Assembly: GCA_012295275.1 (NCBI GenBank)
Contig: CM022671.1
Location: forward strand, 1-64,000
Source of the DNA: Chrysomallon squamiferum
Lineage: Eukaryota; Animalia; Mollusca
Reading direction: 5' to 3'
Length of the DNA stretch: 64,000 nucleotides
The translations under genes and the position numbers were made by a program. The notes below the pieces were generated by a model. That model saw only the letters and a list, made by a program, of their open reading frames with translations, was not told where the DNA came from and made no database searches. Below are positions 1 through 63,712 of this stretch, in pieces; positions within the stretch are counted from its first letter, which is position 1; the number at the start of each line of letters is the position of its first letter.

Positions 1-3000
1 AATATTTCCGACGTGTGCAAAGGTGCGCGCCGTCAGGGCGAGTGTGGCAAAAACGTTTCCAACATTTACCAAAGGTGCTGCACCTTTTGAAAATGCGTTT
101 GAAAAAAAACGAGCAAATTTTCAAAAATATGTGCGTTTTTTGTGCACGTGTCGGAAACGAGTTGTTCCCCTTGGGTGGCGCGTGCGGCACTTTTCACCCG
201 TGTCGGGCAACCCTTGCCCCACTTTTGGGTATGTGCGCCCGATTTTCCCACGTGCTCGGAAAAGTTATTGCACTTTGAAAAAAGGTACCCCTAGCATTTT
301 CAACGAAACTTGAAAAATTCGATTTTCAAAGTTGAAAATCCGTGTGGCACTTTTCCGTTTGGTCGGGAAAAATATTTCGACGTGTGCAAAACGTGCGCGC
401 CGTCCGGGGCGGGGTGTGTGGCAAAAAAAAACGTTTCCAACATTTACCAAAGGTGCTGCACCTTTTGAAAATGCGTTTGAAAAAAAAAAGAGCAAATTTT
501 CAAAACATGTGCGTTTTTGTGCACGTGTCGGAAACAGTTGTTCCCCTTAGGGTGGGGCGTGCGGCACTTTTGACCCGTGTCGGGCAACCCTTGCCCCCTT
601 TTGGGTATGTGCGCCCGATTTTTCCCACGTGCTCGGAAAAAGTTATTGCACTTTGAAAAAGGTACCCCTAGCATTTTCAACGAAACTTGAAAAAATTCGA
701 TTTTCAAAAGTTGAAAATCCGTGTGGCACTTTTCCGTTTGGTCGGGAAAAATATTTCGACGTGTGCAAAACGTGCGCGCCGTCGGGGCGAGTGTGGCAAA
801 AACGTTTCCAACATTTACCAAAGGTGCTGCACCTTTTGAAAATGCGTTTGAAAAAAAAACGAAATTTTTTTCAAAACATGTGCGTTTTTGTGTGCGTGTC
901 GGAAACAGAGTTGTTCCCCTTGGGTGGGGCGTGCGGCACTTTTGACCCGTGTCGGGCAACCCTTGCCCCACTTTTGGGTATGTGCGCCCGATTTTTCCCA
1001 CGTGCTCGGAAAAAGTTATTGCACTTTGAAAAAGGTACCCCTAGCATTTTCAACGAAACTTGAAAAAATTCGATTTTCAAAAGTTGAAAATCCGTGTGGC
1101 ACTTTTCCGTTTGGTCGGGAAAAATATTTCGACGTGTGCAAAACGTGCGCGCCGTCGGGGCCGGTGTGGTGGCAAAAAACGTTTCCAACATTTACCAAAG
1201 GTGCTGCACCTTTTGAAAATGCGTTTGAAAAAAAAAAGAGCAAATTTTTTCAAAACATGTGCGTTTTTGTGCACGTGTCGGAAACGAGTTGTTCCCCCCC
1301 TTGGGTGGGCGTGCGGCACTTTTGACCCGTGTCGGGCAACCCTTGCCCCACTTTTGGGTATGTGCGCCCGATTTTTCCCACGTGCTCGGAAAAAGTTATT
1401 GCACTTTGAAAAAGGTACCCCTAGCATTTTCAACGAAACTTGAAAAAATCGATTTTCAAAAGTTGAAAATCCGTGTGGCACTTTCCGTTTGGTCGGGAAA
1501 AATATTTCGACGTGTGCAAAACGTGCGCGCCGTCGGGGGCGGCGAGTGTGCCAAAAACGTTTCCAACATTTACCAAAGGTGCTGCACCTTTTGAAAATGC
1601 GTTTGAAAAAAAAACGAGCAAATTTTCAAAACATGTGCGTTTTTTGTGCACGTGTCGGAAACGAGTTGTTCCCCTTGGGTGGGGCGTGCGGCACTTTTGA
1701 CCCGTGTCGGGCAACCCTTGCCCCACTTTTGGGTATGTGCGCCCGATTTTTCCCACGTGCTCGGAAAAAGTTATTGCACTTTGAAAAAAAGTACCCCTAG
1801 CATTTTCAACGAAACTTGAAAAAATTCGATTTTCAAAGTTGAAAATCCGTGTGGCACTTTCCGTTTGGTCGGGAAAAATATTTCGACGATGTGCAAAAAA
1901 CGCGCGCGCCGTCGGGGCGAGAGTGTGGCAAAAACGTTTCCAACATTTACCAAAGGTGCTGCACCTTTTGAAAATGCGTTTGAAAAAAAAAAACGAGCAA
2001 ATTTTCAAAAACATGTGCGTTTTTTGCACGTGTCGGAAACAGTTGTTCCCCTTAGGTGGGGCGTGCGGCACTTTTTTGACCCGTGTCGGGCAACCCTTGC
2101 CCCACTTTTGGGTATGTGCGCCCGATTTTTTTTCCGTGCTCGGAAAAAAATTATTGCACTTTGAAAAAAACCCCCCTAGCATTTTCAACGAAACTTGAAA
2201 AAATTCGATTTTCAAAGTTGAAAATCCGTGTGGCACTGTTCCGTTTGGTCGGGAAAAATATTTCGACGTGTGCAAAAACGTGCGCGCCGTCGGGGCGAGT
2301 GTGGCAAAAACGTTTCCAACATTTACCAAAGGTGCTGCACCTTTTGAAAATGCGTTTGAAAAAAAAAAAGCAAATTTTCAAAACATGTGCGTTTTTTGCA
2401 CGTGTCGGAAACAGTTTGTTCCCCTTTGGGGCGTGCGCGCACTTTTGACCCGTGTCGGGCAACCCTTGCCCCACTTTTTTTTGTATGTGCGCCCGATTTT
2501 TCCCACGTGCTCGGAAAAAAAGTTATTGCACTTTGAAAAAAAATTACCCCTAGCATTTTCAACGAAACTTGAAAAAATTCGAATTTCAAAGTTGAAAATC
2601 CGTGTGGCACTTTCCGTTTGGTCGGGAAAAATATTTCGACGTGTGCAAAAAAACGCGCGCCGTCGGGGCGAGTGTGGCAAAAAAAAAAACAACATTTACC
2701 AAAGGTGCTGCACCTTTTGAAAATGCGTTTGAAAAAAACGAACAAATTTTCAAAATGCGTTTTTTTGAAAAAAAAAAACAAATTTTTCCTGGGGTGCGTT
2801 TTTTTGCACGTGTCGGGCAAACAAAGTTTGTGCCCCGCCCCGTTTCCCACGTGCTCGGAAAAAAAGTTATTGCCTTTGAAAAGGTTTTGACGAAACTTGA
2901 AAAATTCGATTTTCAAAGTTTTTGGTATTTCCGCCCGGTCGGGAAAATATTTCGACGTTTTGCAAAACGTGCGCGCCGTCGGAAAAAAAAGGTGTTGCAC

Positions 3001-6000
3001 CTTTTGAAAATTTTGAAAAAAAACGAAAAATTTTCAAAAAATGTGCGTTTTTGTGCCCCTTTTTCAACCCGTGTCAAACCCCTTGAAAAATTCGATTTCA
3101 AAGTTGAAAATCCGTGTGGAAAAATTCCCCTTCCATTTTCAACGGGAAAAATTCGATTTTCAAAATTTCGAAAATCCGTGCAAAAAAAAATCGGGAAAAA
3201 TATTTCGACGTGTGCAAAACGTGCGCGCCGTCGTCCGGGGGGCGTGTGGCAAAAACGTTTCCAACATTTTCCAAAGGTGCTGCACCTTTTGAAAATGCGT
3301 TTGAAAAAAAAAAAAAAAATTTTTTTTTTTGTGCGTTTTTTGTGCACGTGTCGGAAACGAGTTGTTCCCCTTAGGGTGGGGCGTGCGGCACTTTTGACCC
3401 GTGTCGGGCAACCCTTGCCCCACTTTTGGGTATGTGCGCCCGATTTTTTCCCGTGCTCGGAAAAAGTTATTGCACTTTGAAAAAGGTACCCTAGCATTTT
3501 CAACAACGAAACTTGAAAAAATTCGATTTTCAAAGTTGAAAATCCGTGTGGCACTTTTCCGTTTGGTCGGGAAAAATATTTCGACGTGTGCAAAACGTGC
3601 GCGCCGTCGGGGCGAGTGTGGCAAAACGTTTCCAACATTTTACCAAAGGTGCTGCACCTTTTGAAAATGCGTTTGAAAAAAAAAAGCAAATTTTCAAAAA
3701 CATGTGCGTTTCTTTGTGCACGTGTCGGAAACAGAGTTGTTCCCCCTTAGGGGGGTGCGGCGGCTTTTTTTGTGTCGGGCAACCCAACCCCCCTTTTTTT
3801 TATTTATGTGCGCCGATTTTTTTCCACGTGCTCGGAAAAAAAGTTATTGCACTTTGAAAAAAAAAAGTACCCTAGCATTTTCAACGAAACTTGAAAAAAT
3901 TCGATTTTCAAAGTTGAAAATCCGTGTGTTCCGTTTTGGTCGGGAAAAATATTTCGACGATGTGCAAAACGTGCGCGCCGTCGGGCGCGGTGTGGCAAAA
4001 AAAACGTTTCCAACATTTACCAAAGGTGCTGCACCTTTTGAAAATGCGTTTGAAAAAAAAAAAGCAAATTTTCAAAAATGTGCGTTTTTGTGCGTGTCGG
4101 AAACGAGTTGTTCCCCCTTAGGTGGGGCGTGCGGCACTTTTTTGACCCGTGTCGGGCAACCCTTGCCCCTTTTGGGTATGTGCGCCCGATTTTTCCCGTG
4201 CTCGGAAAAAAAGTTATTGCACTTTGAAAAAGGTACCTAGCATTTTCAACGAAACTTGAAAAAAAATCGATTTTCAAAGTTGAAAATCCGTGTGGCACTT
4301 TTCCGTTTGGTCGGGAAAAATATTTCGACGTGTGCAAAACGTGCGCGCCGTCGTCGGGGGGGCGGTGTGTGGCAAAAAAAACGTCCAACATTTACCAAAG
4401 GTGCTGCACCTTTTGAAAATGCGTTTGAAAAAAAAAACAAACAAATTTTCAAAAACATGTGCGTTTTTTGCACGTGTCGGAAACGAGTTGTTCCCCTTGG
4501 GTGGGGCGTGCGGCACTTTTGACCCCCGTGTCGGGCAACCCCCCCCCCCCTTTTGGTATGTGCGCCCGATTTTTCCCGTGCTCGGAAAAAGTTATTGCAC
4601 TTTGAAAAAAAAGGTACCCCTAGCATTTTCAACGAAACTTGAAAAATTCGATTTTCAAAGTTGAAAATCCGTGTGGCACTTTTCCGTTTGGTCGGGAAAA
4701 ATATTTCGACGTGTGCAAAAAAAAATGCGCGCCGTCGTCCGGGCGGGGTGGGCAAAAAAACGTTTCCAACATTTACCAAAGGTGCTGCACCTTTTGAAAA
4801 TGCGTTTGAAAAAAAAAAGAGCAAATTTTCAAAAACATGTGCGTTTTTTGTGCACGTGTCGGAAACGAGTTGTTCCCCTTGGGTGGGGCGTGCGGCACTT
4901 TTGACCCGTGTCGGGCAACCCTTGCCCCACTTTTGGGTATGTGCGCCCGATTTTTCCCACGTGCTCGGAAAAAGTTATTGCACTTTGAAAAAGGTACCCC
5001 TAGCATTTTCAACAAAGAAAAAAAGTGAAAAATTCGATTTTCAAAAAATATGAAAATCCGTGTGGCAAAGTTTCCGTTTGGTCGGGAAAAATATTTCGAC
5101 GATGTGCAAAAACGTGCGCGCCGTCGGGGGCGGGCGTGTGGCAAAAAAACGTTTCCAACATTTACCAAAGGTGCTGCACCTTTTGAAAATGCGTTTGAAA
5201 AAAAAAAGAAAAAATTTTCAAAAAAATGTGCGTTTTTTTGCACGTGTCGGAAACAGTTGTTCCCCCCTTGGGTGGGGCGTGCGGCACTTTTGACCCGTGT
5301 CGGGCAACCCCCCTTTTTTTGGTATGTGCGCCCGATTTTTCCCACGTGCTCGGAAAAAGTTATTGCACTTTGAAAAAAAAGTACCCCTAGCATTTTCAAC
5401 GAAACTTGAAAAAATTCGATTTTCAAAGTTGAAAATCCGTGTGGCACTTTTCCGTTTGGTCGGGAAAAATATTTCGACGTGTGCAAAACGTGCGCGCCGT
5501 CGGGGCGAGTGTGGCAAAAACGTTTCCAACATTTACCAAAGGTGCTGCACCTTTTGAAAATGCGTTTGAAAAAAAAACGAACAAATTTTCAAAAACATGT
5601 GCGTTTTTTGTGCACGTGTCGGAAACAGGTTGTTCCCCTTGGGTGGGGCGTGCGGCACTTTTGACCCGTGTCGGGCAACCCTTGCCCCACTTTTGGGTAT
5701 GTGCGCCCGATTTTTCCCGAGCTCGGAAAAAAAAAAAAGTATTGCACTTTGAAAAAGGTACCCCTAGCATTTTCAACGAAACTTGAAAAAATTCGATTTT
5801 CAAAAGTTGAAAATCCGTGTGGCACTGTTCCGTTTGGTCGGGAAAAATATTTCGACGTGTGCAAAAGCGTGCGCGCCGTCGGGGCGAGTGTGGCAAAAAC
5901 GTTTCCAACATTTACCAAAGGTGCTGCACCTTTTGAAAATGCGTTTGAAAAAAAAACGAGCAAATTTTCAAAAACATGTGCGTTTTTTGTGCACGTGTCG

Positions 6001-9000
6001 GAAACGAGTTGTTCCCCTTGGGTGGGGCGTGCGGCACTTTTGACCCGTGTCGGGCAACCCTTGCCCTTTTGGGTATGTGCGCCCGATTTTTCCCACGTGC
6101 TCGGAAAAAGTTATTGCACTTTGAAAAAAAGGTACCCCTAGCATTTTCAACGAAACTTGAAAAATTCGATTTTCAAAGTTGAAAATCCGTGTGGCACTAT
6201 TCCGTTTGGTCGGGAAAAATATTTCGACGATGTGCAAAAAAAAAACGTGCGCGCCGTCGGGGCGAGTGTGGCAAAAACGTTTCCAACATTTACCAAAGGT
6301 GCTGCACCTTTTTTTGAAATGCGTTTGAAAAAAAAAAACGAGCAAATTTTCAAAAACATGTGCGTTTTTTGTGCACGTGTCGGAAACGAGTTGTTCCCCT
6401 TGGGTGGGGCGTGCGGCACTTTTGACCCGTGTCGGGCAACCCTTGCCCCACTTTTGGGTATGTGCGCCCGATTTTTCCCACGTGCTCGGAAAAAGTTATT
6501 GCACTTTGAAAAAGGTACCCCTAGCATTTTCAACGAAACTTGAAAAAATTCGATTTTCAAAAGTTGAAAATCCGTGTGGCACTTTTCCGTTTGGTCGGGA
6601 AAAATATTTCGACGTGTGCAAAAGGTGCGCGCCGTCGGGGCGAGTGTGGCAAAAACGTTTCCAACATTTACCAAAGGTGCTGCACCTTTTGAAAATGCGT
6701 TTGAAAAAAAAACGAGCAAATTTTCAAAAACATGTGCGTTTTTTGTGCACGTGTCGGAAACGAGTTGTTCCCCTTGGGTGGGGCGTGCGGCACTTTTGAC
6801 CCGTGTCGGGCAACCCTTGCCCCACTTTTGGGTATGTGCGCCCGATTTTTCCCACGTGCTCGGAAAAAGTTATTGCACTTTGAAAAAAAATTACCCCCTA
6901 GCATTTTCAACGAAACTTGAAAAAAAATCGATTTTCAAAAGTTGAAAATCCGTGTGGCACTGTTCCGTTTGGTCGGGAAAAATATTTCGACGTGTGCAAA
7001 AGCGTGCGCGCCGTCGGGGCGAGTGTGGCAAAAACGTTTCCAACATTTACCAAAGGTGCTGCACCTTTTGAAAATGCGTTTGAAAAAAAAACGAGCAAAT
7101 TTTCAAAAACATGTGCGTTTTTTGTGCACGTGTCGGAAACGAGTTGTTCCCCTTGGGTGGGGCGTGCGGCACTTTTGACCCGTGTCGGGCAACCCTTGCC
7201 CCACTTTTGGGTATGTGCGCCCGATTTTTCCCACGTGCTCGGAAAAAGTTATTGCACTTTGAAAAAGGTACCCCTAGCATTTTCAACGAAACTTGAAAAA
7301 ATTCGATTTTCAAAAGTTGAAAATCCGTGTGGCACTTTTCCGTTTGGTCGGGAAAAATATTTCGACGTCTGTGCAAAACGTGCGCGCCGTCGGGGGGGGC
7401 GGTGTGGCGAACAAAAACGTTTCCAACATTTACCAAAGGTGCTGCACCTTTTGAAAATGCGTTTGAAAAAAAAAAAGCAAATTTTCAAAAACATGTGCGT
7501 TTTTTGTGCACGTGTCGGAAACGAGTTGTTCCCCTTGGGTGGGGCGTGCGGCACTTTTGACCCGTGTCGGGCAACCCTTGCCCCACTTTTGGGTATGTGC
7601 GCCCGATTTTTCCCACGTGCTCGGAAAAAGTTATTGCACTTTGAAAAAGGTACCCCTAGCATTTTCAACGAAACTTGAAAAATTCGATTTTCAAAGTTGA
7701 AAATCCGTGTGGCACTATTCCGTTTGGTCGGGAAAAAAAAAATTTCGACGTGTGCAAAACGCGCGCGCCGTCGGGGCGGGCGATGTGGCAAAAAAAAAAC
7801 GTTTCCAACAACATTTACCAAAGGTGCTGCACCTTTTGAAAATGCGTTTGAAAAAAAAAAACGAGCAAATTTTCAAAAACATGTGCGTTTTTTGTGCACG
7901 TGTCGGAAACGAGTTGTTCCCCTTGGGTGGGGCGTGCGGCACTTTTGACCCGTGTCGGGCAACCCCTTGCCCCTTTTTTTGTATGTGCGCCCGATTTTTT
8001 TTCCGTGCTCGGAAAAAAAATTGCACTTTGAAAAAAATTACCCCTAGCATTTTCAACGAAACTTGAAAAATTCGATTTTCAAAAGTTGAAAATCCGTGTG
8101 GCACTTTTTCCGTTTGGTCGGGAAAAATATTTCGACGATGTGCAAAACGTGCGCGCCGTCGGGGCGAGTGTGGCAAAAAAAACGTTTCAACATTTACCAA
8201 AGGTGCTGCACCTTTTTTGAAATGCGTTTGAAAAAAAAAAGCAAATTTTCAAAAACATGTGCGTTTTTTGTGCACGTGTCGGAAACGAGTTGTTCCCCTT
8301 GGGTGGGGCGTGCGGCACTTTTGACCCGTGTCGGGCAACCCTTGCCCCACTTTTGGGTATGTGCGCCCGATTTTTCCCACGTGCTCGGAAAAAGTTATTG
8401 CACTTTGAAAAAGGTACCCCTAGCATTTTCAACGAAACTTGAAAAATTCGATTTTCAAAAGTTGAAAATCCGTGTGGCACTGTTCCGTTTGGTCGGGAAA
8501 AATATTTCGACGTGTGCAAAAAAACGTGCGCCGTCGTCGGGCGAAGTGTGGCAAAAAAAACGTTTCCAACATTTACCAAAGGTGCTGCACCTTTTTTTGA
8601 AAATGCGTTTGAAAAAAAAAAAAAATTTTTTCAAAAACATGTGCGTTTTTTTTTGTGCGTGTCGGAAACGAGTTGTTCCCCCCTTAGGTGGGGCGTGCGG
8701 CACTTTTTTGACCCGTGTCGGGCAACCCTTGCCCCACTTTTGGGTATGTGCGCCCGATTTTTCCCACGTGCTCGGAAAAAGTTATTGCACTTTGAAAAAG
8801 GTACCCCTAGCATTTTCAACGAAACTTGAAAAAATTCGATTTTCAAAAGTTGAAAATCCGTGTGGCTTTTTCCGTTTGGTCGGGAAAAATATTTCGACGT
8901 GTGCAAAACGTGCGCGCCGTCGGGGCGAGTGTGGCAAAAACGTTTCCAACATTTACCAAAGGTGCTGCACCTTTTGAAAATGCGTTTGAAAAAAAAACGA

Positions 9001-12000
9001 GCAAATTTTCAAAAACATGTGCGTTTTTTTTGCACGCACGTGTCGGAAACAGAGTTTCCCCCCTTGGGTGGGGCGTGCGGCACTTTTGACCCGTGTCGGG
9101 CAACCCAACCCCACTTTTTTTTTATGTGCGCCCCCGATTTTTCCCACGTGCTCGGAAAAAGTTATTGCACTTTGAAAAAGGTACCCCTAGCATTTTCAAC
9201 GAAACTTGAAAAAATTCGATTTTCAAAAGTTGAAAATCCGTGTGGCACTTTTCCGTTTGGTCGGGAAAAATATTTCGACGTGTGCAAAAGGGCGCGCCGT
9301 CGGGGCGAGTGTGGGAAAAACGTTTCCAACATTTACCAAAGGTGCTGCACCTTTTGAAAATGCGTTTGAAAAAAAAACGAGCAAATTTTCAAAAAATGTG
9401 CGTTTTTTTTGTGCACGTGTCGGAAACGAGTTGTTCCCCTTAGGTGGGGCGTGCGGCACTTTTGACCCGTGTCGGGCAACCCCCTGCCCCACTTTTTTTT
9501 GTATGTGCGCCCGATTTTTCCCCGTGTGCTCGGAAAAAGTTATTGCACTTTGAAAAAAAGGTACCCCTAGCATTTTCAACGAAACTTGAAAAAAAAATTC
9601 GATTTTCAAAGTTGAAAATCCGTGTGGCACTATTCCGTTTGGTCGGGAAAAATATTTCGACGATGTGCAAAACGTGCGCGCCGTCGTCGGGGCGAGTGTG
9701 GCAAAAACGTTTCCAACATTTACCAAAGGTGCTGCACCCCTAAAAATGCGTTTGAAAAAAAACGAGCAAATTTTCAAAAAAAACATGTGCGTTTTTGTGC
9801 ACGTGTCGGAAACGAGTTGTTCCCCTTGGGTGGGGCGTGCGGCACTTTTGACCCGTGTCGGGCAACCCTTGCCCCACTTTTTTGTATGTGCGCCCGATTT
9901 TTCCCACGTGCTCGGAAAAAGTTATTGCACTTTGAAAAAGGTACCCCTAGCATTTTCAACGAAACTTGAAAAAATTCGATTTTCAAAAGTTGAAAATCCG
10001 TGTGGCACTATTCCGTTTGGTCGGGAAAAATATTTCGACGTGTGCAAAAGGTGCGCGCCGTCGGGGCGAGTGTGGCAAAAACGTTTCCAACATTTACCAA
10101 AGGTGCTGCACCTTTTGAAAATGCGTTTGAAAAAAAAACGAGCAAATTTTCAAAAACATGTGCGTTTTTTGTGCACGTGTCGGAAACGAGTTGTTCCCCT
10201 TGGGTGGGGCGTGCGGCACTTTTGACCCGTGTCGGGCAACCCTTGCCCCCCTTTTTTGGGTATGTGCGCCCGATTTTTCCCCGTGTGCTCGGAAAAAGTT
10301 ATTGCACTTTGAAAAAAAAAGTACCCCTAGCATTTTCAACGAAACTTGAAAAAATTCGATTTTCAAAAGTTGAAAATCCGTGTGGCACTATTCCGTTTGG
10401 TCGGGAAAAATATTTCGACGTGTGCAAAAAACGTGCGCCGTCCGGGGGGGGGGAAAAAAAAAACGTTTCAACATTTACCAAAGGTGCTGCACCTTTTTTT
10501 GAAAATGCGTTTGAAAAAAACGAGCAAATTTTTTTCAAAACATGTGCGTTTTTTTGTGCACGTGTCGGAAACGAGTTTGTTCCCCTTGGGTGGGGCGTGC
10601 GGCACTTTTGACCCGTGTCGGGCAACCCCCTGCCCCTTTTGGGGGTATGTGCGCCCGATTTTTCCCACGTGCTCGGAAAAAGTTATTGCACTTTGAAAAA
10701 AGAACCCTAGCATTTTCAACGAAACTTGAAAAAATTCGATTTTTCAAAAATTCGATTTTCAAAGTTGAAAATCCGTGTGGCACTTCCGTTTGGTCGGGAA
10801 AAAAAAATTTCGACGATGTGCAAAACAAAGTGCGCGCCGTCCGTCGGGGCGAGTGTGGCAAAAACGTTTCCAACATTTACCAAAGGTGCTGCACCTTTTG
10901 AAAATGCGTTTGAAAAAAAAAAAAAAAAAATTTTTTCAAAAAAAATGTGCGTTTTTTTTGCGTGTCGGTCGGAAACGAGTTGTTCCCCCCCTTATTGGGG
11001 CGTGCGGCACTTTTGACCCGTGTGTCGGGCAACCCTTGCCCCACTTTTGGGTGTGCGCGCCGATTTTTTTCCCACGTGCTCGGAAAAAGTTATTGCACTT
11101 TGAAAAAGGTACCCCTAAAAATTTTCAACGAATTTTCAACGAAACTTGAAAAATCGATTTTCAAAGTTGAAAATCCGTGTGTGGCACTTTCCGTTTGGTC
11201 GGGAAAAATATTTCGACGTGTGCAAAAGGTGCGCGCCGTCGTCCGGGCGAGTGTGGCAAAAAAACGTTTCCAACATTTACCAAAGGTGCTGCACCTTTTG
11301 AAAATGCGTTTGAAAAAAAAAACGAGCAAATTTTCAAAAACATGTGCGTTTTTTGTGCACGTGTCGGAAACGAGTTGTTCCCCTTGGGTGGGGCGTGCGG
11401 CACTTTTGACCCGTGTCGGGCAACCCTTGCCCCACTTTTGGGTATGTGCGCCCGATTTTTCCCACGTGCTCGGAAAAAGTTATTGCACTTTGAAAAAGGT
11501 ACCCCTAGCATTTTCAACGAAACTTGAAAAAATTCGATTTTCAAAAGTTGAAAATCCGTGTGGCACTATTCCGTTTGGTCGGGAAAAATATTTCGACGTG
11601 TGCAAAACGGTGCGCGCCGTCGGGGCGAGTGTGGCAAAAACGTTTCCAACATTTACCAAAGGTGCTGCACCTTTTGAAAATGCGTTTGAAAAAAAAACGA
11701 GCAAATTTTCAAAAACATGTGCGTTTTTTGTGCACGTGTCGGAAACGAGTTGTTCCCCTTGGGTGGGGCGTGCGGCACTTTTGACCCGTGTCGGGCAACC
11801 CTTGCCCCATTTTTTGGAATGTGCGCCCGATTTTTCCCACGTGCTCGGAAAAGTTATTGCACTTTGAAAAAGGTACCCCTAGCATTTTCAACGAAACTTG
11901 AAAAAAATTCGATTTTCAAAGTTGAAAATCCGTGTGGCACTATTCCGTTTGGTCGGGAAAAATATTTCGACGTGTGCAAAAAAAAATGCGCCGTCGTCGG

Positions 12001-14200
12001 GGCGAGTGTGGCAAAAACGTTTCCAACATTTACCAAAGGTGCTGCACCTTTTGAAAATGCGTTTGAAAAAAAAACGAGCAAATTTTCAAAAACATGTGCG
12101 TTTTTTTTGTGCACGTGTCGGAAACGAGTTGTTCCCCTTGGGTGGGGCGTGCGGCACTTTTGACCCGTGTCGGGCAACCCTTGCCCCACTTTTGGGTATG
12201 TGCGCCCGATTTTTCCCACGTGCTCGGAAAAAGTTATTGCACTTTGAAAAAGGTACCCCTAGCATTTTCAACGAATTGAAAAATTCGATTTTCAAAAGTT
12301 GAAAATCCGTGTGGCACTATTCCGTTTGGTCGGGAAAAATATTTCGACGTGTGCAAAAGGTGCGCGCCGTCGGGGCGAGTGTGGCAAAAACGTTTCCAAC
12401 ATTTACCAAAGGTGCTGCACCTTTTGAAAATGCGTTTGAAAAAAAAACGAGCAAATTTTCAAAAACATGTGCGTTTTTTGTGCACGTGTCGGAAACGAGT
12501 TGTTCCCCTTGGGTGGGGCGTGCGGCACTTTTGACCCGTGTCGGGCAACCCTTGCCCCACTTTTGGGTATGTGCGCCCGATTTTTCCCACGTGCTCGGAA
12601 AAAGTTATTGCACTTTGAAAAAGGTACCCCTAGCATTTTCAACGAAACTTGAAAAAATTCGATTTTCAAAAGTTGAAAATCCGTGTGGCACTATTCCGTT
12701 TGGTCGGGAAAAATATTTCGACGTGTGCAAAACGTGCGCGCCGTCGGGGCGAGTGTGGCAAAAACGTTTCCAACATTTACCAAAGGTGCTGCACCTTTTG
12801 AAAATGCGTTTGAAAAAAAAACGAGCAAATTTTCAAAAACATGTGCGTTTTTTTGCGCACGTTTCGGAAACGAGTTGTTCCCCTTGGGTGGGGCGTGCGG
12901 CACTTTTGACCCGTGTCGGGCAACCCTTGCCCCACTTTTGGGTATGTGCGCCCGATTTTTCCCACGTGCTCGGAAAAGTTATTGCACTTTGAAAAAAGGT
13001 ACCCCTAGCATTTTCAACGAAACTTGAAAAAATTCGATTTTCAAAAGTTGAAAATCCGTGTGGCACTATTCCGTTTGGTCGGGAAAAATATTTCGACGTG
13101 TGCAAAAGGTGCGCGCCGTCGGGGCGAGTGTGGCAAAAACGTTTCCAACATTTACCAAAGGTGCTGCACCTTTTGAAAATGCGTTTGAAAAAAAAACGAG
13201 CAAATTTTCAAAAACATGTGCGTTTTTTGTGCACGTGTCGGAAACGAGTTGTTCCCCTTGGGTGGGGCGTGCGGCACTTTTGACCCGTGTCGGGCAACCC
13301 TTGCCCCACTTTTGGGTATGTGCGCCCGATTTTTCCCACGTGCTCGGAAAAAGTTATTGCACTTTGAAAAAGGTACCCCTAGCATTTTCAACGAAACTTG
13401 AAAAAATTCGATTTTCAAAAGTTGAAAATCCGTGTGGCACTATTCCGTTTGGTCGGGAAAAATATTTCGACGTGTGCAAAAGGTGCGCGCCGTCGGGGCG
13501 AGTGTGGCAAAAACGTTTCCAACATTTACCAAAGGTGCTGCACCTTTTGAAAATGCGTTTGAAAAAAAAACGAGCAAATTTTCAAAAACATGTGCGTTTT
13601 TTGTGCACGTTTCGGAAACGAGTTGTTCCCCTTGGGTGGGGCGTGCGGCACTTTTGACCCGTGTCGGGCAACCCTTGCCCCACTTTTGGGTATGTGCGCC
13701 CGATTTTTCCCACGTGCTCGGAAAAAGTTATTGCACTTTGAAAAAGGTACCCCTAGCATTTTCAACGAAACTTGAAAAAATTCGATTTTCAAAAGTTGAA
13801 AATCCGTGTGGCACTATTCCGTTTGGTCGGGAAAAATATTTCGACGTGTGCAAAAGGTGCGCGCCGTCGGGGCGAGTGTGGCAAAAACGTTTCCAACATT
13901 TACCAAAGGTGCTGCACCTTTTGAAAATGCGTTTGAAAAAAAAAACGAGCAAATTTTCAAAAACATGTGCGTTTTTTGTGCACGTGTCGGAAACGAGTTG
14001 TTCCCCTTGGGTGATGGCGCGGCGGCACTTTTTCCCCGTGTCGGGCAACCCTTGTCCCCACTTTTGGGTATGTGCCCCGATTTTTAACCTCGGAAAAAGT
14101 TATTGCACTTTGAAAACCCTAACCCTAACCCTAACCCAACGAAACCTAAAAAACCCGATTTTCAAAACCTGAAAAACCCTGTAACCCTATTCCGTTTGGT
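1..14200. repeat. Tandem satellite array, 374-bp monomer, about 38 copies, truncated by the window start
   Basis: The same monomer recurs head-to-tail (…aacttgaaaaaattcgattttcaaaagttgaaaatccgtgtggcac…ggtacccctagcattttcaacg). Equivalent ORF starts at 12309, 12683, 13058, 13432 and 13806 give a period of 374-375 bp. It is much richer in GC and CpG than the rest of the window. Confidence 0.98.
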
Positions 14201-14206
14201 CCCTAA
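14117..14206. repeat. Telomeric (CCCTAA)n repeats interleaved with the last satellite monomer
   Basis: ccctaaccctaaccctaaccc at 14117-14137, then acctaa, aaccc, aacct, aaccct, taaccct and ccctaa (14201-14206) replace satellite bases in register. TTAGGG/CCCTAA is the ancestral metazoan telomere repeat. Confidence 0.8.
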
Positions 14207-14213
14207 AAATAAC

Positions 14214-14282
14214 TGCTCGTTTCTTTTTCACATGCATTTAAAATATGTTGCGCACCTTCTGTAAATGTTGGATACGTTTTTG
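14214..14282 (-). repeat. Inverted, diverged ~70-bp fragment of the 374-bp satellite
   Basis: tgctcgtttctttttcacatgcattt…gcaccttctgtaaatgttggatacgtttttg aligns to the reverse complement of the monomer segment caaaaacgtttccaacatttaccaaaggtgc…aaatgcgtttgaaaaaaaaacgagca at about 58/70 positions by hand. Confidence 0.85.
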
Positions 14283-14956
14283 TCCTCTCATTTTCTCTGC
14301 TTCAGTATACTGAAGTTTTTGTTCATCTTAAAGAGTAACATTATCTTGAAGTTTGATTTTGCAAATATCCTTGAAACTAAATATTATACGTACATTAAAA
14401 ATGTCCGACATACAACATCCCCAAACACAAACTACACAAGTTCGTTGTCGATAATACTCTTTAATTTTTAATGTAGCATAATATTACAGAAATGTACAAT
14501 ATAACGTATAGAGTTGCCAAAACATCTTTCTTACGAAATATATGTTCTCTCTTCTCCCTTCAACTAACTTTCACTCCTGAAACATTGAACACATTACACA
14601 CACCTGATCAGTATTGGCAGATCATTACTGTCATGGGTTTTTATGATAGTCACAGTGGCATTCTTTACCATATATTAATGTCCAAGAGTGTTGGAGGAAT
14701 TTCCCAATTACCTTGAATATAAAGGAAGAGAAATAAACCTCAGACACCTTAGTGGTGTTTATGTAAGTTTAGTAAACCAGAGATTGTGCTTTAGTTGAAT
14801 CCCTCACTTACACTTGTATTAAAACGCTACATTACTATACTTTGTTGATAATAAAGTATTATTACAAAATTTATATAGCTCACGAAGCCCAACAATTTCA
14901 CTTTGATCACCATGTTGTTGCTATTTTGTTTCTTTTTTAAATGTTGAAAGAAGAAG

Positions 14957-15046
14957 AAATTATAGATTTAGTAAATTGTATTTTTGATAAATGTCAAATG
15001 AAATTATAGATTTAGTAAATTGTATTTTTGATAAATGTCAAATGAA
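14957..15046. repeat. Direct tandem duplication, 44 bp x2
   Basis: gaaattatagatttagtaaattgtatttttgataaatgtcaaat occurs twice back to back. Confidence 0.9.
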
Positions 15047-15959
15047 ACAGATGTCTTCTGAGCTCTATAAAGATGAATTTCACGGGAAAATATACAGTTT
15101 ACAATCTATAGTCCATGAAAAACTAAAATGGACCTAAGCCCAAATCAGTCTTATAGCATAAGATTAATATGTCACGATAACTTTTTATATCTGTCTTTCT
15201 AGCTATAGATTGTCTGTCTGTCTCTGTACGTATGTATTTATGATTGTATGTATGTATTAGGTATGTATGAATGTATGCATGTATGTATATATATATGTAT
15301 GTATCTATCTAATTATCTATTTATATCAATATTAATTTAATATATCTGATGGTTTGCTTGCTCCTATTTTACACTATGATTCAGAAGAAAGGGGAAATTT
15401 TTTATTGCAAAATGTTTAAGGATGTTCAAATAAAAATATTTGAACGTTTTTAAAATTAGGTTACCCAGACCTTGTTGCTGCTTGCGAAGGTCCACCATAA
15501 CCATTAAATCTTCAGGGCCCTCAAAATAAAGGCCCGCTATTGTTTTTATAGCTGCAAAGTAATAATAATAAACTGGACAACGCAAAACATATCCTTTTCC
15601 ATTACGGGATAATGTTTTAATGATTTGCTGCAGAAAATCATTAACAGGACGCGATCTCTGTATAATCATGTTTAAGACAGATGTCTTAATGATTCAGCTA
15701 CGTACAGTGATTACTAATAAACATACTCTATTTGAAATTAAATTTACTGTTAACGAAAAACTCTTGACCCTGACTCTGCCATTCTGGTGGCTTCCTGCAA
15801 GTCGCGCAAATTATGAAAAGCAATGTCAGAAATTGCCTTTTCTAAATAGCCCTTTAAAATAATAATTACAAAACCAGCAGGGGAGACCGTCGTAATGAAC
15901 ATAACAGACAAAATAACATTAGCCACTGGACCACAACTAGTTCACTAGTTGCATTGTCG

Positions 15960-16280
15960 CAAGTTCATTGAAGAAACGTTTGCAAGCATATGAGAAAATC
16001 TTGCGACGGAGCAACTGTCAAAATCGGCGATGGCTCTCATTAACAAGTATCCAAATTGACTTGGAGGTAAAACGAACTTCTCAACACGGAGTTTGACAAC
16101 TGATCCGGGTGCTTCTCAGATGACGCAGCTGAAGATCAGAACTACACGGCGACGCATTGGAGCTGCTCTTGTACAAACTCATCAAAGATCACAACTTGCA
16201 GTCATGTTTTCCTAATACTGAAATAATGCTACGCATGTATTTGTGTATGATGGTTTATTGTGGACCGGAGAGGCTTGTAA
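15960..16280 (+). mobile_element. Degenerate hAT transposase fragment (C-terminal dimerization region, ZMYM1-like)
   Basis: Translated pieces KKRLQAYEKI, QLSKSAMALINKYPN and LYKLIKDHNLQSCFPNTEIMLRMYLCMMVYCGPER resemble the hAT C-terminal FPNxxIxLRIYLxxxVxxxSxERSFS motif. The frame is broken. Confidence 0.65.
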
Positions 16281-16423
16281 AGTATGATATATACTTCTTA
16301 TATAGAAGAATCAGCCCCCAGTTTAAAAAAAAAAAAATAATAATAATAAAAAATGTTGATATGATCACTGACAACAACAACAATAATAATAAGAACTTCA
16401 CCACCAAACGTCACCATTACCAA

Positions 16424-16456
<33 letters not shown>

Positions 16457-16461
16457 AACTA

Positions 16462-16504
<43 letters not shown>

Positions 16505-16752
16505 TGATGATGATGATGAAAATTCTAACAAATATATGATTAGTAACAGGAACGTGCAATGGTTCACACGGAGCCAGATACAATAAAATGTCTAATACTG
16601 AAAGATAATAACATTACTGTTAATACTAATCTGAATCTGTCAGTTTATCAAATAAATAGTATGGCTTTGTACAGCGGCAGAGAGAATAAAAAATAATGTC
16701 ATAATAAATACACATGCGTACATACACGTACACTCGGTTTATACATGTGTTA

Positions 16753-16797
<45 letters not shown>

Positions 16798-18134
16798 GTT
16801 ATCTTTTTTCTTTTTTAAAAGAAGTGTGAACCCCCAAACACAAACACAAAACAACAACAAAAAGCTTAATATGAACTTCTGATGTTTTGATCCGTAAATC
16901 AACTTTTAAGATAATATACATTCCAGATATAAATTGTTCCTCTTCCCCATCCCCCTAAATGTATAGGCTACAAATCATAGCCTATGTTACTATGTTCGAC
17001 ACACTGCCCTGGTTTATCTGCTTATGTGATACGTGCTATGTGATGTATGTTTCTTTTATAGGAAGCAGCTTAAAAAAGTAATATTCTTAACTGTTTAATT
17101 AAAATGATTTCATAATCGATCATACTTTCTCGTTCATTTTGTCATTATGCAAGTAAATATGATTAAAAGCTAATAATCATTATTAATAAAATGTATGGTT
17201 AAACAATCTTTATTCGTTAAGATTAGAATTCTAAGAAATCTTTTGCACTTAGACATCATCTGATTACAGTGATCGGGACTTAGTAGCTAAGAGCGAATAT
17301 TTCTTGGTAACGATTTGCGTATTAATACAGTTTTATTATCATCTTTTTTTTCTGTTTTTCTTTTTTGTTTCTTATTCCAAAATCATAACAATTCATAAGA
17401 CAAACAACTGATCATATTAATTTTGTACTATCTGCATGATAATTTTTTATTAATGATTATTTTATACATCACCGATAAGTTACGGGCTATATTCCTTACA
17501 GTGCCCGTTAACGGAAGGCGCAAATAATAAACTGACAGTTGTTGTTTGGTGTCTGTTTCGTTAGAAGAAAGGTGCTCGTTGTTTTGCACCTGTTTTGTAT
17601 CAAGAGTATAGACATTTTCAGCAACATAAATCATGACTGAGTATTATTTAAATGTATACAGAAAATGCAAAATGTGGAAAATTTCATTAATGTTCTGAGG
17701 TGATGGAAAGTAGCATCTGCTTCTCGGTCGCCTAATTTTGTTTTATAATTAATATGATATCGTGTTACTCTGAAGTGTCAAATGTGCAACTGTATTTTTA
17801 GATTGAAGATACTCACAGTATCATGAGTATGAGTATCATTAGCATCTATTTTTAAAACCTCTGTTTTTGTTTATTAATGATAAACTACAGATAATTAATT
17901 TGTGCACCTAAAGCAATATGCCACATTTGGATAGTTTACTGGTACCAGTACTGAAATTGTTTGCATTTGATCACTTCCATTTAATCATTAATGACAGTTA
18001 ATTCAAGGCTGTCAACCGAAGATTCTATTATGTAAAGATACACAGTTTCAGCAGTTACATTTATTAGAACTAATAATATTCAGGAGATGTTTCGTCATTT
18101 TTAATGTGACAACAGAACGATACTAAACCTAAAG

Positions 18135-47931
<29,797 letters not shown>

Positions 47932-47954: not shown

Positions 47955-49004
47955 TACAATGTGTTCTCAGTCTCACATATATGTTCTCAGTCAAACATAA
48001 AATAAGTTCTCAATATGTTCTCAGCTACATAAAGTATGTGTTCTTGGTTACATATAAAGTATGTGTTCAGTGACACATAAAAAAAATATTGTCAATAGCA
48101 TATAAAGTATGTGTTCAGTGACACAAAAAAAATATTGTCAGTAACATAAAGTATGTGTTCAGTGACACATAAAACATATTGTCAGTAACATAAAGTATGT
48201 GTTCAGTGACACATAAAAAAAATATTGTCAGTGACACAAAAAAAAATATTGTCATAACATAAAGTATGTGTTCAGTGACACATAAAAAATATTGTCAATA
48301 GCATAAAGTATGTGTTCAGTATATTGTCAGTAACATAAAGTATGTGTTCAGTGACACATAAAACATATTGTCAGTAACATATAAAGTATGTGTTCAGTGA
48401 CACATAAAACATATTGTCAGTAACATATAAAGTATGTGTTCAGTGACACATAAAACATATTGTCAGTAACATATAAAGTATGTGTTCAGTGACACATAAA
48501 ACCAATATTGTCAGTAACATATAAAGTATGTGTTCAGTGACACATAAAATATATTGTCAGTAACATATAAAGTATGTGTTCAGTGACACATAAAACCAAT
48601 ATTGTCAGTAACATAAAGTATGTGTTCAGTGACACATAAAACGTATTGTCAGTAACATAAAGTATGTGTTCAGTGACACATAAAACATATTGTCAGTAAC
48701 ATATAAAGTATGTGTTCAGTGACACATAAAACATATTGTCAGTAACATATAAAGTATGTGTTCAGTGACACATAAAACATATTGTCGGTAACATATAAAG
48801 TATGTGTTCAGTGACACATAAAACCAATATTGTCAGTAACATATAAAGTATGTGTTCAGTGACACATAAAATATATTGTCAGTAACATATAAAGTATGTG
48901 TTCAGTGACACATAAAACCAATATTGTCAGTAACATAAAGTATGTGTTCAGTGACAAATAAAACCAATATTGTCAGTAACATATAAAGTATGTGTTCAGT
49001 GACA
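47955..49004. repeat. Minisatellite with a ~41-44-bp dimeric unit, about 22 copies, just 3' of the SUR stop codon
   Basis: The unit ataaagtatgtgttcagtgacac-ataaaacatattgtcagtaacat is regular from ~48046. Degenerate ~21-bp monomers lie upstream. Confidence 0.95.
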
Positions 49005-60435: not shown

Positions 60436-63400
60436 ATAAAAAAGTCAGGGAGCGAGCGAGAGAAAGAGGGAAGGATAGATACTGAGGGATAGCAGAAAAC
60501 AATAAATAAAATAAATATTCAGTTTTGAATATTCAAGAGAAAAAAAACTGATACCATTATTTTCGCTCCCAGTCTCTTACAGTAATTACATATTGTCGTG
60601 TAATATGTCAAAGAGAAGCCATGTGCCGTGGCTTAGAGTAATGAGGTACTTAAAATTTCTTTAATAATCGATAGAAAAAATTGAAAACGAAATAAAAAGA
60701 AATAAAAAGACATCATAACAACAATAACACACACACACATTTAATAGTAATATTAATGCAACAAAAATATATGTTCTCTGCCGGAGAATCGCTAAATTGT
60801 CGCTTATTTTGGTTTGTAGTGGCTTGAAACAAAATTCCTTGTTCCTAATGACAACAAAAGAGACTCGTGGGTAAAAAAGAGTTTCTTGTTTTCAGTGACA
60901 AAACAGCTCAAGATAAGCGACTCTTTGGTTTTAATGGTTAGACAGAACCAGTTCCTTGATGGTAATAGTTATAAATAAACAATTTCATGTTTTAATGAAT
61001 GAGAGATAATTTCTTGCGTTAAATGGTTAAAATAAAACAGTTAGTTGTTTTCAATGACAAAAGATAATTCCTTTCTTTTTATGACTGATAAGAAACAATT
61101 CATTGCTGAACTGACGAACCTCTCGCCATTCTAAGGAATCGAATGTTTTCAGCTGATGCCTCTGAATCGTAGCGTTAACTGAAAATGAAACCATCGATTA
61201 AGGGCACGGAAACCCTATCATTCAATGTCGCTTAATGTTAGCTTAAATAATGCACATTAATTGTTTTGTTATCACACAAATCCCGGGCAGTGCAGCAGAC
61301 ATAATGGTGAAAATAATCTGAAAACGACAGAATGGAAGCAATCTCCAGGCATTGTGGCACTAATGACGACGTTCGTTCTCAGAGCAATGCACTTTCTGTT
61401 TTTGTGTTAGAACTCTGCAGATTTGATTATGTTTAACCCATAATCTTCTCTCATTAGCTTATTATTATTAGTTTTTAACGTGGAAAAAAGGATGTACGTG
61501 GTTAATTAAAATGTCTAATTAATAAAGAAATCAATCAAACATACTTATACATATAAGAAAAATAGCATAAATCAGTACAAATATGTATATATATATATTA
61601 AAATACAAAGATGTACGTGTATATGAACACATGCGCACACAAACACGTATACACGTACGCCTATAAATACATAGACATACAGAACCACATATAATAAAAC
61701 AAATACACACATACACAAATATGTAGCGATAAACAGTCGTATACTAGATACACACAAACTCTTATACATCTCTACATACCAATGCAAAGAATTTACACAC
61801 GCACATTCAAACATGAAAGACTTGTATGCTAAAAAAGAAAACTATATACATGTACACTTTGAAATATGACACAAATGCATAGTTACGTACAAACAAACTC
61901 ATACATGCAAAATGCAAAATCATACTTTATTTTCTCTTTTAATTTCCCTTCATTTTAACATTACTACATTCTTTTCATTTGAGTACAAATCCATACTTTT
62001 TTTTATTATAAATAGCCTTGGAATATCACACAAAGCAGTGTTCTGTGTATTTGTTTTATTTTTGCAGTCGTAGTTATTGCTGCATCACAGTCGGATTCTC
62101 TGTATGACGTTGTCTCACCTGTTTCGAAGTAATAGCAAAAGTCAGTGCTGTCTTCACGCCTGACATCCTATATGAAACTTGACGGCCGATAAAAGATTCA
62201 CTTTTCATGGATCCCAAAAGCAAGTCAATTTCGTTCACGTTCAAGAAATCTATTGATCAAAACCTCCATGTTATTACTCTGCGTGTTATCTGAACGTTTT
62301 TATGCACAACGTTCTGCAATTTTTTCCCTTTATTATTAGCTTCTTCTTCTTTTTTTCTCCATTCTGATCGAGCTGTTATCAGTACCGAATGAAGTTGCAC
62401 TCCAGCAGACGACGGAGTTAATCGAAGTGTGTCAATCAATTACGTCATTTCGAAGCAAAGTTTTCTTGCTGTCGGATAATTTGGCAATGATTTTTCTGGA
62501 ATGAAGTACCGTCCTTGTTATAGCATGAAGCAGTTTTTGAAAGATTACTAGCTGAAAAACGGTTCGAGCGCATGATGCAAGATTAAAATGTATTTGTGTG
62601 ATAAAAGTGCAAATTTCCAGATTCTAAAGAGTTAGTTTATAATATTAATTTGATAGTTTCTGATAATAACTGAAATTTCATCAACGTTGCTATAGCTGTT
62701 CCACACTTTACGCAATACTAAAACAAAAACAAAATTAAAATCTTGATAATACCAGCTGTTCACTCCATACAAACACTCATACACACAGACATACACATTC
62801 ACGCACATACAAATGAATGCACGCATGGACATACACAAAGACACAAAGACACAGAGACACAGACACAAAGACACAGAGACACAAAGACACAAAGACACAA
62901 ATACATAGAGACACAGAGACACAAAGACACAGAGACACAGAGACACAAAGACACAAAGACACAGAGACAGAGACACAGAGACACAAAGACACAGAGACAC
63001 AGAGGCACAAAGACACAAAGACACAGAGACACAAAGACACAAAGACACAAAGACACAAAGACACACAGAGATAGAGACAGACAGAAAGAAAAACAGAGCA
63101 ATACTCAAATCAAAATAATAGTAATAATAATAATAAATAAAATAAAATAAAATAAAATATAAACAGACAGAGCTACAGTCATGCAGATAGACATACAGAT
63201 TCCAAATGCATGTACTTATATTCACACCAAAGGAACCACAACAACTCACTGTATGTTTGTGTGTGCCATATTGCATCACACAATCCCAGACATCCTGCGA
63301 TGACGTAGAAATTCGGGATATCGATTGGCTGGGGATGCCACAGCCACAACACGATCAAAAGACAAATGTTGAAAGTGGCGCCAGCCGTTATGAACAGGAA

Positions 63401-63517
63401 ACGCTTGATGTGCTCTGCAATGTAACCAATGGCGATCGAGCTTATAGCGCTCACGGTTCCAAAACAGATCAGGATTGGTCCGATGTTGTGAACTCCCAGC
63501 GTGCAGCTGACGTACGA
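60012..63517 (-). CDS. UNC93A: UNC93-like MFS protein (UNC93A-like), last two coding exons; the 5' part lies beyond the window
   Basis: Exon 63517-63250 ([20 protein letters not shown]…[16 protein letters not shown]) and exon 60241-60012 ([32 protein letters not shown]…DIVAL*) join through a canonical phase-1 GT-AG intron. The motifs match the UNC-93 family pattern YVxCxLG, DAxWQTQ…GVLF…EAAFSNYR. Confidence 0.88.
62836..63085. repeat. (GACACAAA/GACACAGA)n compound microsatellite
   Basis: Seen directly, in the UNC93 intron. Confidence 0.93.
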
Positions 63518-63559
63518 CTGAAATGAAATAAAGAAATTAATTACGTAACGTAGCTTATC

Positions 63560-63712
63560 TTCTGTATTTCAGTTAACATTAAAATACCCTAAAAGTATAA
63601 CGTAAGATAACTGATTTTTCTGTATTTCAGTTAACATTAAAATACCCTAAAATTATATCGTAACATAACTGATTTGTCCATATTTCAATTAACATTAAAA
63701 TACCCTAAACTT
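63560..63712. repeat. 58-bp tandem repeat, about 2.6 copies
   Basis: tatttcagttaacattaaaataccctaaa recurs at a 58-bp period. Confidence 0.85.

What the first reader, a model, noticed from the sequence alone, without database searches (positions are those of the whole stretch)
14085..14215. Satellite/telomere mosaic junction: candidate site of programmed chromosome breakage and de novo telomere addition
Seen: the last satellite monomer keeps its register, but blocks of it are replaced by telomere repeat. The satellite reads tgaaaaaggtacccctagcattttcaacgaaacttgaaaaaattcgattttcaaaagttgaaaatccgtgtggcactattccgtttggtcgggaaaaata. The junction reads tgaaaaccctaaccctaaccctaacccaacgaaacctaaaaaacccgattttcaaaacctgaaaaaccctgtaaccctattccgtttggtccctaaaaata. 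Nearly every change moves toward CCCTAA, and single-copy DNA starts right after the last ccctaa. C-rich repeats on the + strand are the correct orientation to cap the left end of the gene-bearing DNA. Inference: this looks like a consensus of two read populations sharing the sequence right of ~14206, one ending in (CCCTAA)n and one continuing into satellite. Established: in programmed DNA elimination in nematodes (Ascaris, Parascaris, Oscheius) and ciliates, germline DNA, often terminal satellite, is cut off and the soma is healed with new telomeres. I know of no such report for the mollusc-like lineage this DNA resembles.
Basis: partly seen in the sequence, partly recalled or inferred. Interest (0 to 1): 0.88.

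Follow-up and report, generated by a model that had tools for sequence, protein, structure and literature searches.

The report
Snail chromosome end blurred by assembly
The half-satellite, half-telomere stretch in this snail genome is likely an assembly blend rather than real DNA: short-read contigs from two samples run on into the same satellite in the opposite direction, and the telomere letters likely come from a shorter, telomere-capped version of this chromosome end, which is more likely an inherited variant than programmed DNA elimination.

Summary
The mosaic is real in the window. At 14115-14213, 26 of 26 bases that differ from the 374-bp satellite fall in telomere 4-mers (null mean 4.0). 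A toy consensus of about 55-70% telomere-capped reads plus satellite reads reproduces it. (1) 14214-14282 is not single-copy: it is an inverted, 83%-identical satellite piece. (2) In 2 of 4 runs laid on the junction (X1, X3), the contig passes 14214 unbroken and continues 12 and 21 letters into the satellite in reverse orientation, not into the mosaic, telomere or the assembled forward array. So the assembled junction is wrong for those samples. A telomere-capped form at about 14214 is inferred but was not seen directly. The host is a gastropod. Best reading: an inherited, telomere-healed truncation of a subtelomeric satellite block, blended with satellite reads at a misjoined or flipped array edge (0.5). 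Programmed DNA elimination is not excluded (0.12) but has no positive support: one site, tissues unknown, satellite abundant in 4 of 4 runs.

The parts
1..14114 (+). 374-bp satellite array as assembled, about 38 monomers, forward orientation; homopolymer-expansion errors typical of a noisy long-read consensus (label from my own knowledge); garbled at 2756-3190
   Evidence: 41 plus-strand monomer hits, 80-100% identity outside the mosaic; the five full monomers at 11853-13726 are 96.9-100%
14014..14098 (+). Mildly garbled end of the last full monomer (outer edge of the blended zone)
   Evidence: at 14033 and 14034 most laid satellite depth carries other letters than the window in all four runs (table 3)
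14115..14213 (+). Satellite/telomere mosaic, likely a consensus blend; three perfect CCCTAA at 14117-14134
   Evidence: (73 of 99 identities to the satellite, 71 to the telomere array, 57 to the inverted satellite against 55 for a control monomer)
14214..14282 (-). Degenerate inverted piece of the same satellite (monomer 156-224, 82.9%). Its left edge is the inferred telomere-addition site, and the place where the X1 and X3 contigs continue into inverted satellite
14283..18134 (.). Low-copy flank with small dispersed repeats; its first ~670 bp is matched by short-read contigs with 0-2 other letters
   Evidence: table 8 (only 14283-14950 was laid)
18135..47928 (+). ABCC8/ABCC9 (sulfonylurea receptor)-like gene, 3.9 kb from the junction and transcribed away from it; places the host among gastropods
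   Evidence: Pfam TMD0_ABC; best of 14 hits Haliotis rubra 78%; 28 collinear tblastn blocks covering residues 1-1675 of P0001

Best explanation
The mosaic is likely a long-read consensus blend at a subtelomeric junction that likely exists in two inherited forms: one runs from the gene-side DNA into the 374-bp satellite in reverse orientation, as contigs of runs X1 and X3 show, and the other has likely lost that satellite block and been capped by telomerase at about 14214. Shown: the telomere bias of the changes, the inverted monomer piece at 14214-14282, and the reverse-orientation continuation in X1 and X3. Inferred: (a) telomere-capped molecules anchored right of 14214 were among the long reads, because C-strand repeats on the + strand cannot come from forward-satellite reads ending in a telomere. 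(b) Their alignments overshot 100-200 bp into a satellite backbone and roughly outvoted it. (c) The forward array is not the true immediate neighbour: either a chimeric-read or repeat-graph misjoin, or the true array flips orientation within about 21-200 bp left of 14214. (d) The cap arose once in a germ line, as a terminal deletion healed by telomerase, and segregates as an allele.
For:: 26 of 26 changes are telomere-directed. (15 mixtures, 8 repeats each, 30 simulated reads): 19 telomere to 11 satellite gives 72.6/69.5 identities against the observed 73/71, and the best mean match to the mosaic (79.8, against 72 and 73 for the pure sequences). The two mixtures without telomere reads stayed at 41-43 telomere identities. 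A half-telomere three-class mix (15/5/10) also fits; loose ends of 12 (X1) and 21 (X3) letters before 14214 match the monomer's minus strand in register with 14214-14282; 9 of 9 window matches of the 21-letter end are on the minus strand, 0.02 expected; the satellite is abundant in 4 of 4 runs. Telomere healing that deletes subtelomeric repeat units, and allelic subtelomere variation, are proposed for Chlamydomonas (PMC8287924, passages). Misjoins from single chimeric nanopore reads and at telomeric repeats are documented (10.1101/866020, passages).
Against: No telomere-joined contig was seen in any of the 4 runs, so the capped form rests on the mosaic alone. The loose ends are 12 and 21 letters, below the tool's 31-letter rule for a bridge, and both come from one study (P1). 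They could in principle come from another degenerate copy that shares the 14214-14243 word. No phasing was possible. A random break landing in the last 69 bp of an array is unlikely a priori, whereas programmed elimination would put it there. The mosaic holds no trace of the inverted satellite (57 against a control of 55), although the simulation shows up to a third of such reads can hide. The simulation is a toy, not the assembler used.
Confidence: 0.5

Rival explanations
1. Programmed DNA elimination: the germ line carries the reverse-orientation satellite block, and somatic cells cut at the array edge (about 14214) and add a new telomere. The long-read sample mixed both cell types.
For: Two forms seem to meet at one position, and the break lies in the last degenerate monomer at the border of unique DNA. 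The C-strand orientation caps the gene-bearing side. The simulation needs a telomere plurality. Oscheius tipulae elimination was found as an internal precise telomere site in 80% of reads (PMC8022731, section 14 part 1 read).
Against: Only one site. In the Caenorhabditis survey, species with one or two such sites, or with sites at repeats on a subset of ends, were not counted as having elimination (PMC13370393, passages). Ascarids lose over 99% of satellite (PMC9894435, passages), whereas this satellite is abundant in 4 of 4 runs (tissue not on record). X1 and X3 assemble the continuing form without a break at 14214, which a soma-dominated library should not favour. No mollusc case turned up in searches.
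Confidence: 0.12
2. A real short interstitial telomere tract (about 100-200 bp) lies between the forward array and the inverted piece on one haplotype, as the scar of an old healed end that later gained an array. Satellite reads partly overwrote it during consensus.
For: The telomere signal is confined to 100-200 bp. The monomers next to the junction are among the cleanest of the array, as if several anchored reads span into the forward array.
Against: X1 and X3 continue into inverted satellite without telomere letters. The forward register is kept base for base up to 14211, which suggests a satellite backbone rather than a telomere one.
Confidence: 0.15
3. There is no telomere at this locus. 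Telomere-ended reads from another chromosome end that shares the inverted satellite piece or a duplicated flank were laid here, on top of a misjoined array.
For: The only junction form seen directly is the inverted satellite. A roughly 90%-identical second copy of parts of the flank exists in X1, X2, X4 and X5.
Against: 69 bp of 83%-identical satellite is a poor anchor for long reads. The second copy has a different, non-telomeric left flank at 14293 (loose ends). Misplaced reads would have to outvote the true ones.
Confidence: 0.15
4. The mosaic is genuine fixed DNA: a degenerate interstitial telomere formed by telomerase-like conversion of the last monomer.
For: It is what the window reads.
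Against: Contigs of X1 and X3 leave the window's letters at 14214. A simple majority vote reproduces the same telomere-converted blocks.
Confidence: 0.03

Closest known systems
Telomere healing and allelic contraction of subtelomeric repeat arrays (Chlamydomonas reinhardtii Sultan arrays; PMC8287924)
   Same: A telomere placed inside a subtelomeric repeat unit after loss of distal copies; haplotypes differ in the end structure.
   Different: Sultan units carry a telomere-like seed in phase with the tract. Here the letters at 14214 are out of telomere phase, and the capped form is inferred from a consensus blend, not seen in reads.
Programmed DNA elimination with precise end removal (Oscheius tipulae, early-branching Caenorhabditis; PMC8022731, PMC13370393)
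   Same: An internal site where some molecules pass into telomere repeat and others continue.
   Different: There it is at all ends or many sites, with a motif and a soma/germ-line split. Here it is one site, no motif can be derived, tissues are unknown, and the assembled continuation has the wrong orientation.
Ascarid elimination (Ascaris 121-bp satellite; PMC9894435)
   Same: Satellite distal, genes proximal, telomere at the border.
   Different: Ascaris adds telomeres over 3-6 kb regions and loses over 99% of its satellite. Here the addition looks confined to one point and the satellite is abundant in all four runs laid.
Long-read misjoins at telomeres and by chimeric reads (Drechmeria coniospora; 10.1101/866020)
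   Same: A contig extended or fused past a repeat or telomere, with artificial junction sequence; O. tipulae chrIV also had an artificial assembled end (PMC8022731 passages).
   Different: The assembler and raw reads behind this window were not available, so the route is inferred.

Membership tests
Programmed DNA elimination with de novo telomere addition | Two molecule classes at one site: telomere-capped and continuing | tested here: inconclusive
   Continuing class seen in X1 and X3, in reverse orientation; capped class only inferred from the mosaic
Programmed DNA elimination with de novo telomere addition | Continuing form confined to the germ line, capped form in the soma, on both haplotypes | not testable with these tools
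   Tissue is not on record for X1-X5; contigs only, no phasing
Programmed DNA elimination with de novo telomere addition | Eliminated satellite strongly depleted in somatic DNA | tested here: inconclusive
   Satellite abundant in 4 of 4 runs; word depths are capped at 50,000 (10.1101/2024.07.30.605881 passages), so dosage cannot be compared; tissues unknown
Programmed DNA elimination with de novo telomere addition | Reproducible at many or all chromosome ends, often with a shared motif | not testable with these tools
   No whole genome held; no earlier findings for this genome
Telomere-healed terminal deletion allele | Telomere repeat joined directly to subtelomeric DNA in C-strand-distal orientation | tested here: inconclusive
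   Orientation fits (C-strand 53, best G-strand window 11) and telomere letters abut 14214, but no read or contig shows the join
Telomere-healed terminal deletion allele | A longer allele continuing through the same position | tested here: met
   X1 and X3 contigs continue in register into the inverted monomer; 12 and 21 letters only, under the tool's 31-letter bridge rule
Telomere-healed terminal deletion allele | Segregates with haplotype, same in all tissues | not testable with these tools
   No raw reads offered; all listed runs are contigs
Consensus artefact at a mixed-read junction | Assembled letters are contradicted by independent data at the same anchor | tested here: met
   contigs with 0 other letters over 141 and 187 window bases leave the window at 14214
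Consensus artefact at a mixed-read junction | The sequence is reproducible by voting between two parent sequences | tested here: met
   (toy model)

The most novel reading that the evidence does not exclude
A gastropod mollusc performs programmed chromosome-end removal: somatic cells cut at the inner edge of a terminal 374-bp satellite block, inside its last degenerate monomer at 14214, and add a new telomere 3.9 kb from a sulfonylurea-receptor gene, while the germ line keeps the reverse-orientation array seen in X1 and X3.
Probability: 0.12. Interest if true: 0.9.

Novelty: new member of a known kind. Interest (0 to 1): 0.3.

Why it matters
As it most likely stands, this flags a misassembled chromosome end: the 14 kb forward satellite should not be trusted as the neighbour of the ABCC8/9-like gene, and a telomere probably sits there on at least one haplotype. 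That is useful for curation and a clean example of how a hidden telomere leaves a fingerprint in a noisy consensus. If elimination were the cause, it would be the first mollusc case of break-and-heal DNA elimination that my searches could find, in a phylum far from nematodes and ciliates. The site is now defined to the base and can be tested with existing raw reads and one PCR panel.

Tried and rejected
No whole genome is held, so other contig ends could not be checked. No earlier findings. A satellite motif scan of metagenome contigs found 0 matches. Missing cover, not used as evidence: no contig lay on 14110-14209 in 4 of 4 runs at 90%, but the tool skipped 14110-14146 as repeat and filters some records. 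X5 and X2 and X4 lack the contig over about 14214-14310. That could be the human-like filter removing a telomere-ended contig, graph simplification next to a high-depth repeat, or low cover, so it supports nothing. Likewise the lack of a telomere branch in X1 and X3 is not proof of absence: Logan contigs are simplified with SPAdes-like heuristics, and my recollection, from no call, is that short links into very high-depth nodes can be pruned. The X1 joint 14211 to 13840 is only satellite running into the next monomer. Satellite dosage comparison was dropped: summed depth is 0.66-1.4 x 10^5 times a single-copy contig, but X2 and X4 sit near the 50,000 cap, giving only rough lower bounds of about 3,100 and 2,300 copies. 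A trace of inverted satellite in the mosaic was tested and not found. An orientation flip at the monomer's 7-bp inverted repeat at 352-374 would sit near 14075-14090, where the window is garbled; the monomer has many such repeats, so this is an untested guess. Long contigs in X1, X3 and X4 (71-189 kb) and metatranscriptome libraries in study P2 hint at bacteria-bearing somatic tissue, but tissue is not on record and I did not count this.

Full report
Observation. Bases 1-14211 are a 374-bp satellite. A clean monomer gives 42 hits of 40 nt or more in the window, 41 on the plus strand and 1 on the minus strand. The last partial monomer keeps its register to 14211 but is only 78% identical. In 14115-14213, 26 bases differ from the monomer and all 26 lie in telomere 4-mers; random refilling gave a mean of 4.0 and a maximum of 19 in 200,000 trials. 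The stretch has 73 of 99 identities to the satellite and 71 to a CCCTAA array, against 41 for an intact monomer. The 12 best C-strand telomere windows listed all overlap the junction, and the best G-strand window scores 11 against 53.

Correction to the anatomy. The DNA right of the mosaic is not single-copy at first. 14214-14282 is monomer 156-224 in reverse orientation at 82.9%. Low-copy DNA starts at about 14283. An ABCC8/9-like gene begins at 18135 and runs to 47928 on the plus strand in 28 collinear blocks. Its best of 14 relatives is from the abalone Haliotis rubra at 78%, followed by other gastropods and then bivalves, so the host is a gastropod.

Independent data. No whole genome is held. 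Eleven runs were listed, five of them holding half or more of the words of 14090-20400, all kept as short-read contigs. I laid X1-X4 on 13840-14950 and X1, X3, X5, X2 on 14110-14400. In X1 and X3 a contig matches the window without a difference from 14214 rightwards (141 and 187 bases; depths 126 and 161) and goes on to the left with 12 and 21 letters that the window does not have. The 21-letter end matches the window 9 times at up to 3 mismatches, all on the minus strand of satellite monomers, against 0.02 expected. It sits in register with the inverted piece. So in these two samples the gene-side DNA continues into the same satellite in reverse orientation. Limits: both samples are from one study, the overhangs are under the tool's 31-letter rule for a bridge, depth is a whole-contig mean, and a shared word with another degenerate copy cannot be excluded. 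X5 and X2 gave no contig over the junction, which shows nothing either way. No telomere-joined contig was seen in any run. Contigs are simplified (10.1101/2024.07.30.605881, passages) and human-like records are filtered, so this is not proof of absence.

How the mosaic forms. I simulated 30 noisy reads voted onto a satellite backbone (15 mixtures, 8 repeats each). With 12 or fewer telomere reads in two-class mixes the consensus stayed pure satellite. At 19 telomere to 11 satellite it gave 72.6 and 69.5 identities, against the observed 73 and 71, and converted the same blocks. At 27 to 3 it was mostly telomere. Mixes of forward and inverted satellite without telomere reads did not move toward telomere. 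A three-class mix of 15 telomere, 5 forward and 10 inverted reads gave 76/67/59 against the observed 73/71/57, so a minority of inverted reads can hide. This is a toy, not the assembler used, but it shows that the mosaic needs no biology beyond mixed reads with a telomere plurality. By orientation, C-rich repeats on the plus strand must come from molecules whose body lies to the right; forward-satellite reads ending in a telomere would vote G-rich letters (inference).

What is probably there. Two forms meet at 14213/14214: a continuing one (shown in X1 and X3) and a telomere-capped one (inferred). The forward array that the assembly attaches matches neither. It is either a misjoin, of the kind caused by single chimeric nanopore reads or by telomeric repeats (10.1101/866020, passages), or the true array flips orientation shortly left of 14214. 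The run of clean monomers next to the junction leans weakly to the flip. For the capped form I favour an inherited terminal deletion healed by telomerase (0.5), the mechanism proposed for contraction of Chlamydomonas subtelomeric arrays, where allelic variation is extensive (PMC8287924, passages). Rivals are a real short interstitial telomere overwritten by satellite reads (0.15), misplaced telomere reads (0.15), programmed elimination (0.12) and a genuine fixed mosaic (0.03).

Programmed elimination, for and against. For: the break is in the last degenerate monomer at the border of unique DNA, the orientation caps the gene side, and O. tipulae elimination was first seen as an internal telomere site in 80% of reads at every end (PMC8022731, passages and section 14 part 1). 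Against: this is one site. The Caenorhabditis survey found one or two such sites in seven species and 9-11 low-coverage or repeat-associated ones in two more, and did not count these species as having elimination (PMC13370393, passages). Ascarids lose over 99% of their satellite (PMC9894435, passages), while this satellite drew the bulk of 80,907, 2,362, 31,993 and 2,990 laid contigs in X1-X4. Depth caps and unknown tissues prevent a dosage test. X1 and X3 assemble the continuing form unbroken. None of the defining features was met outright.

Literature. Searches for programmed DNA elimination with mollusc (11 papers), DNA elimination with telomere addition and gastropod (0) and chromatin diminution with Mollusca (5) showed no mollusc case in their listings. 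I read passages of two of the 11: PMC9292451 mentions only whole-genome loss in androgenetic Corbicula, and PMC5874043 has the term only in a reference. Searches were seen as listings, apart from the papers named above. The library lacks most subscription papers, and no supplements were read.

Verdict. The letters at 14115-14213 are most likely not real DNA, and the assembled forward array is not the neighbour seen in short reads. A telomere-capped version of this chromosome end probably exists. The ordinary cause, a healed truncation allele, is about four times as likely as programmed elimination on present evidence. Interest 0.3; the elimination reading would deserve 0.9 and can be settled with the raw long reads.

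Noticed in passing
window 18135-47928 (+): Near-complete ABCC8/ABCC9 (sulfonylurea receptor)-like gene, 28 tblastn blocks against P0001; residues about 1002-1063 have no block.
   Followed up: partly
window 14293-14354, 14505-14606, 14643-14919: A second copy about 90% identical to the flank appears in X1, X2, X4 and X5 at lower or similar depth, with a different left flank at 14293; paralog, dispersed repeat or hemizygous segment.
   Followed up: partly
window 1-14211: Monomer variants are clustered along the array: one position reads T or G in most left monomers and A in all ten scored from 9626 on; the monomer is rich in short inverted repeats.
   Followed up: partly
window 32677-33438 and 40372-41158: A 790-bp element duplicated at 96% identity in two introns of the ABCC gene, probably a recent transposon copy; no convincing Pfam match.
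   Followed up: partly
window 63179-63568 (-): Open frame with a weak MFS_1 match (E 0.005, below the cut-off); looks like an exon of an UNC-93-like membrane protein (label from memory).
   Followed up: partly
window 48047-49004: Minisatellite of 46/94-bp period just downstream of the ABCC gene.
   Followed up: no
window 2756-3190: Badly garbled stretch inside the satellite, consistent with a poorly supported consensus.
   Followed up: no
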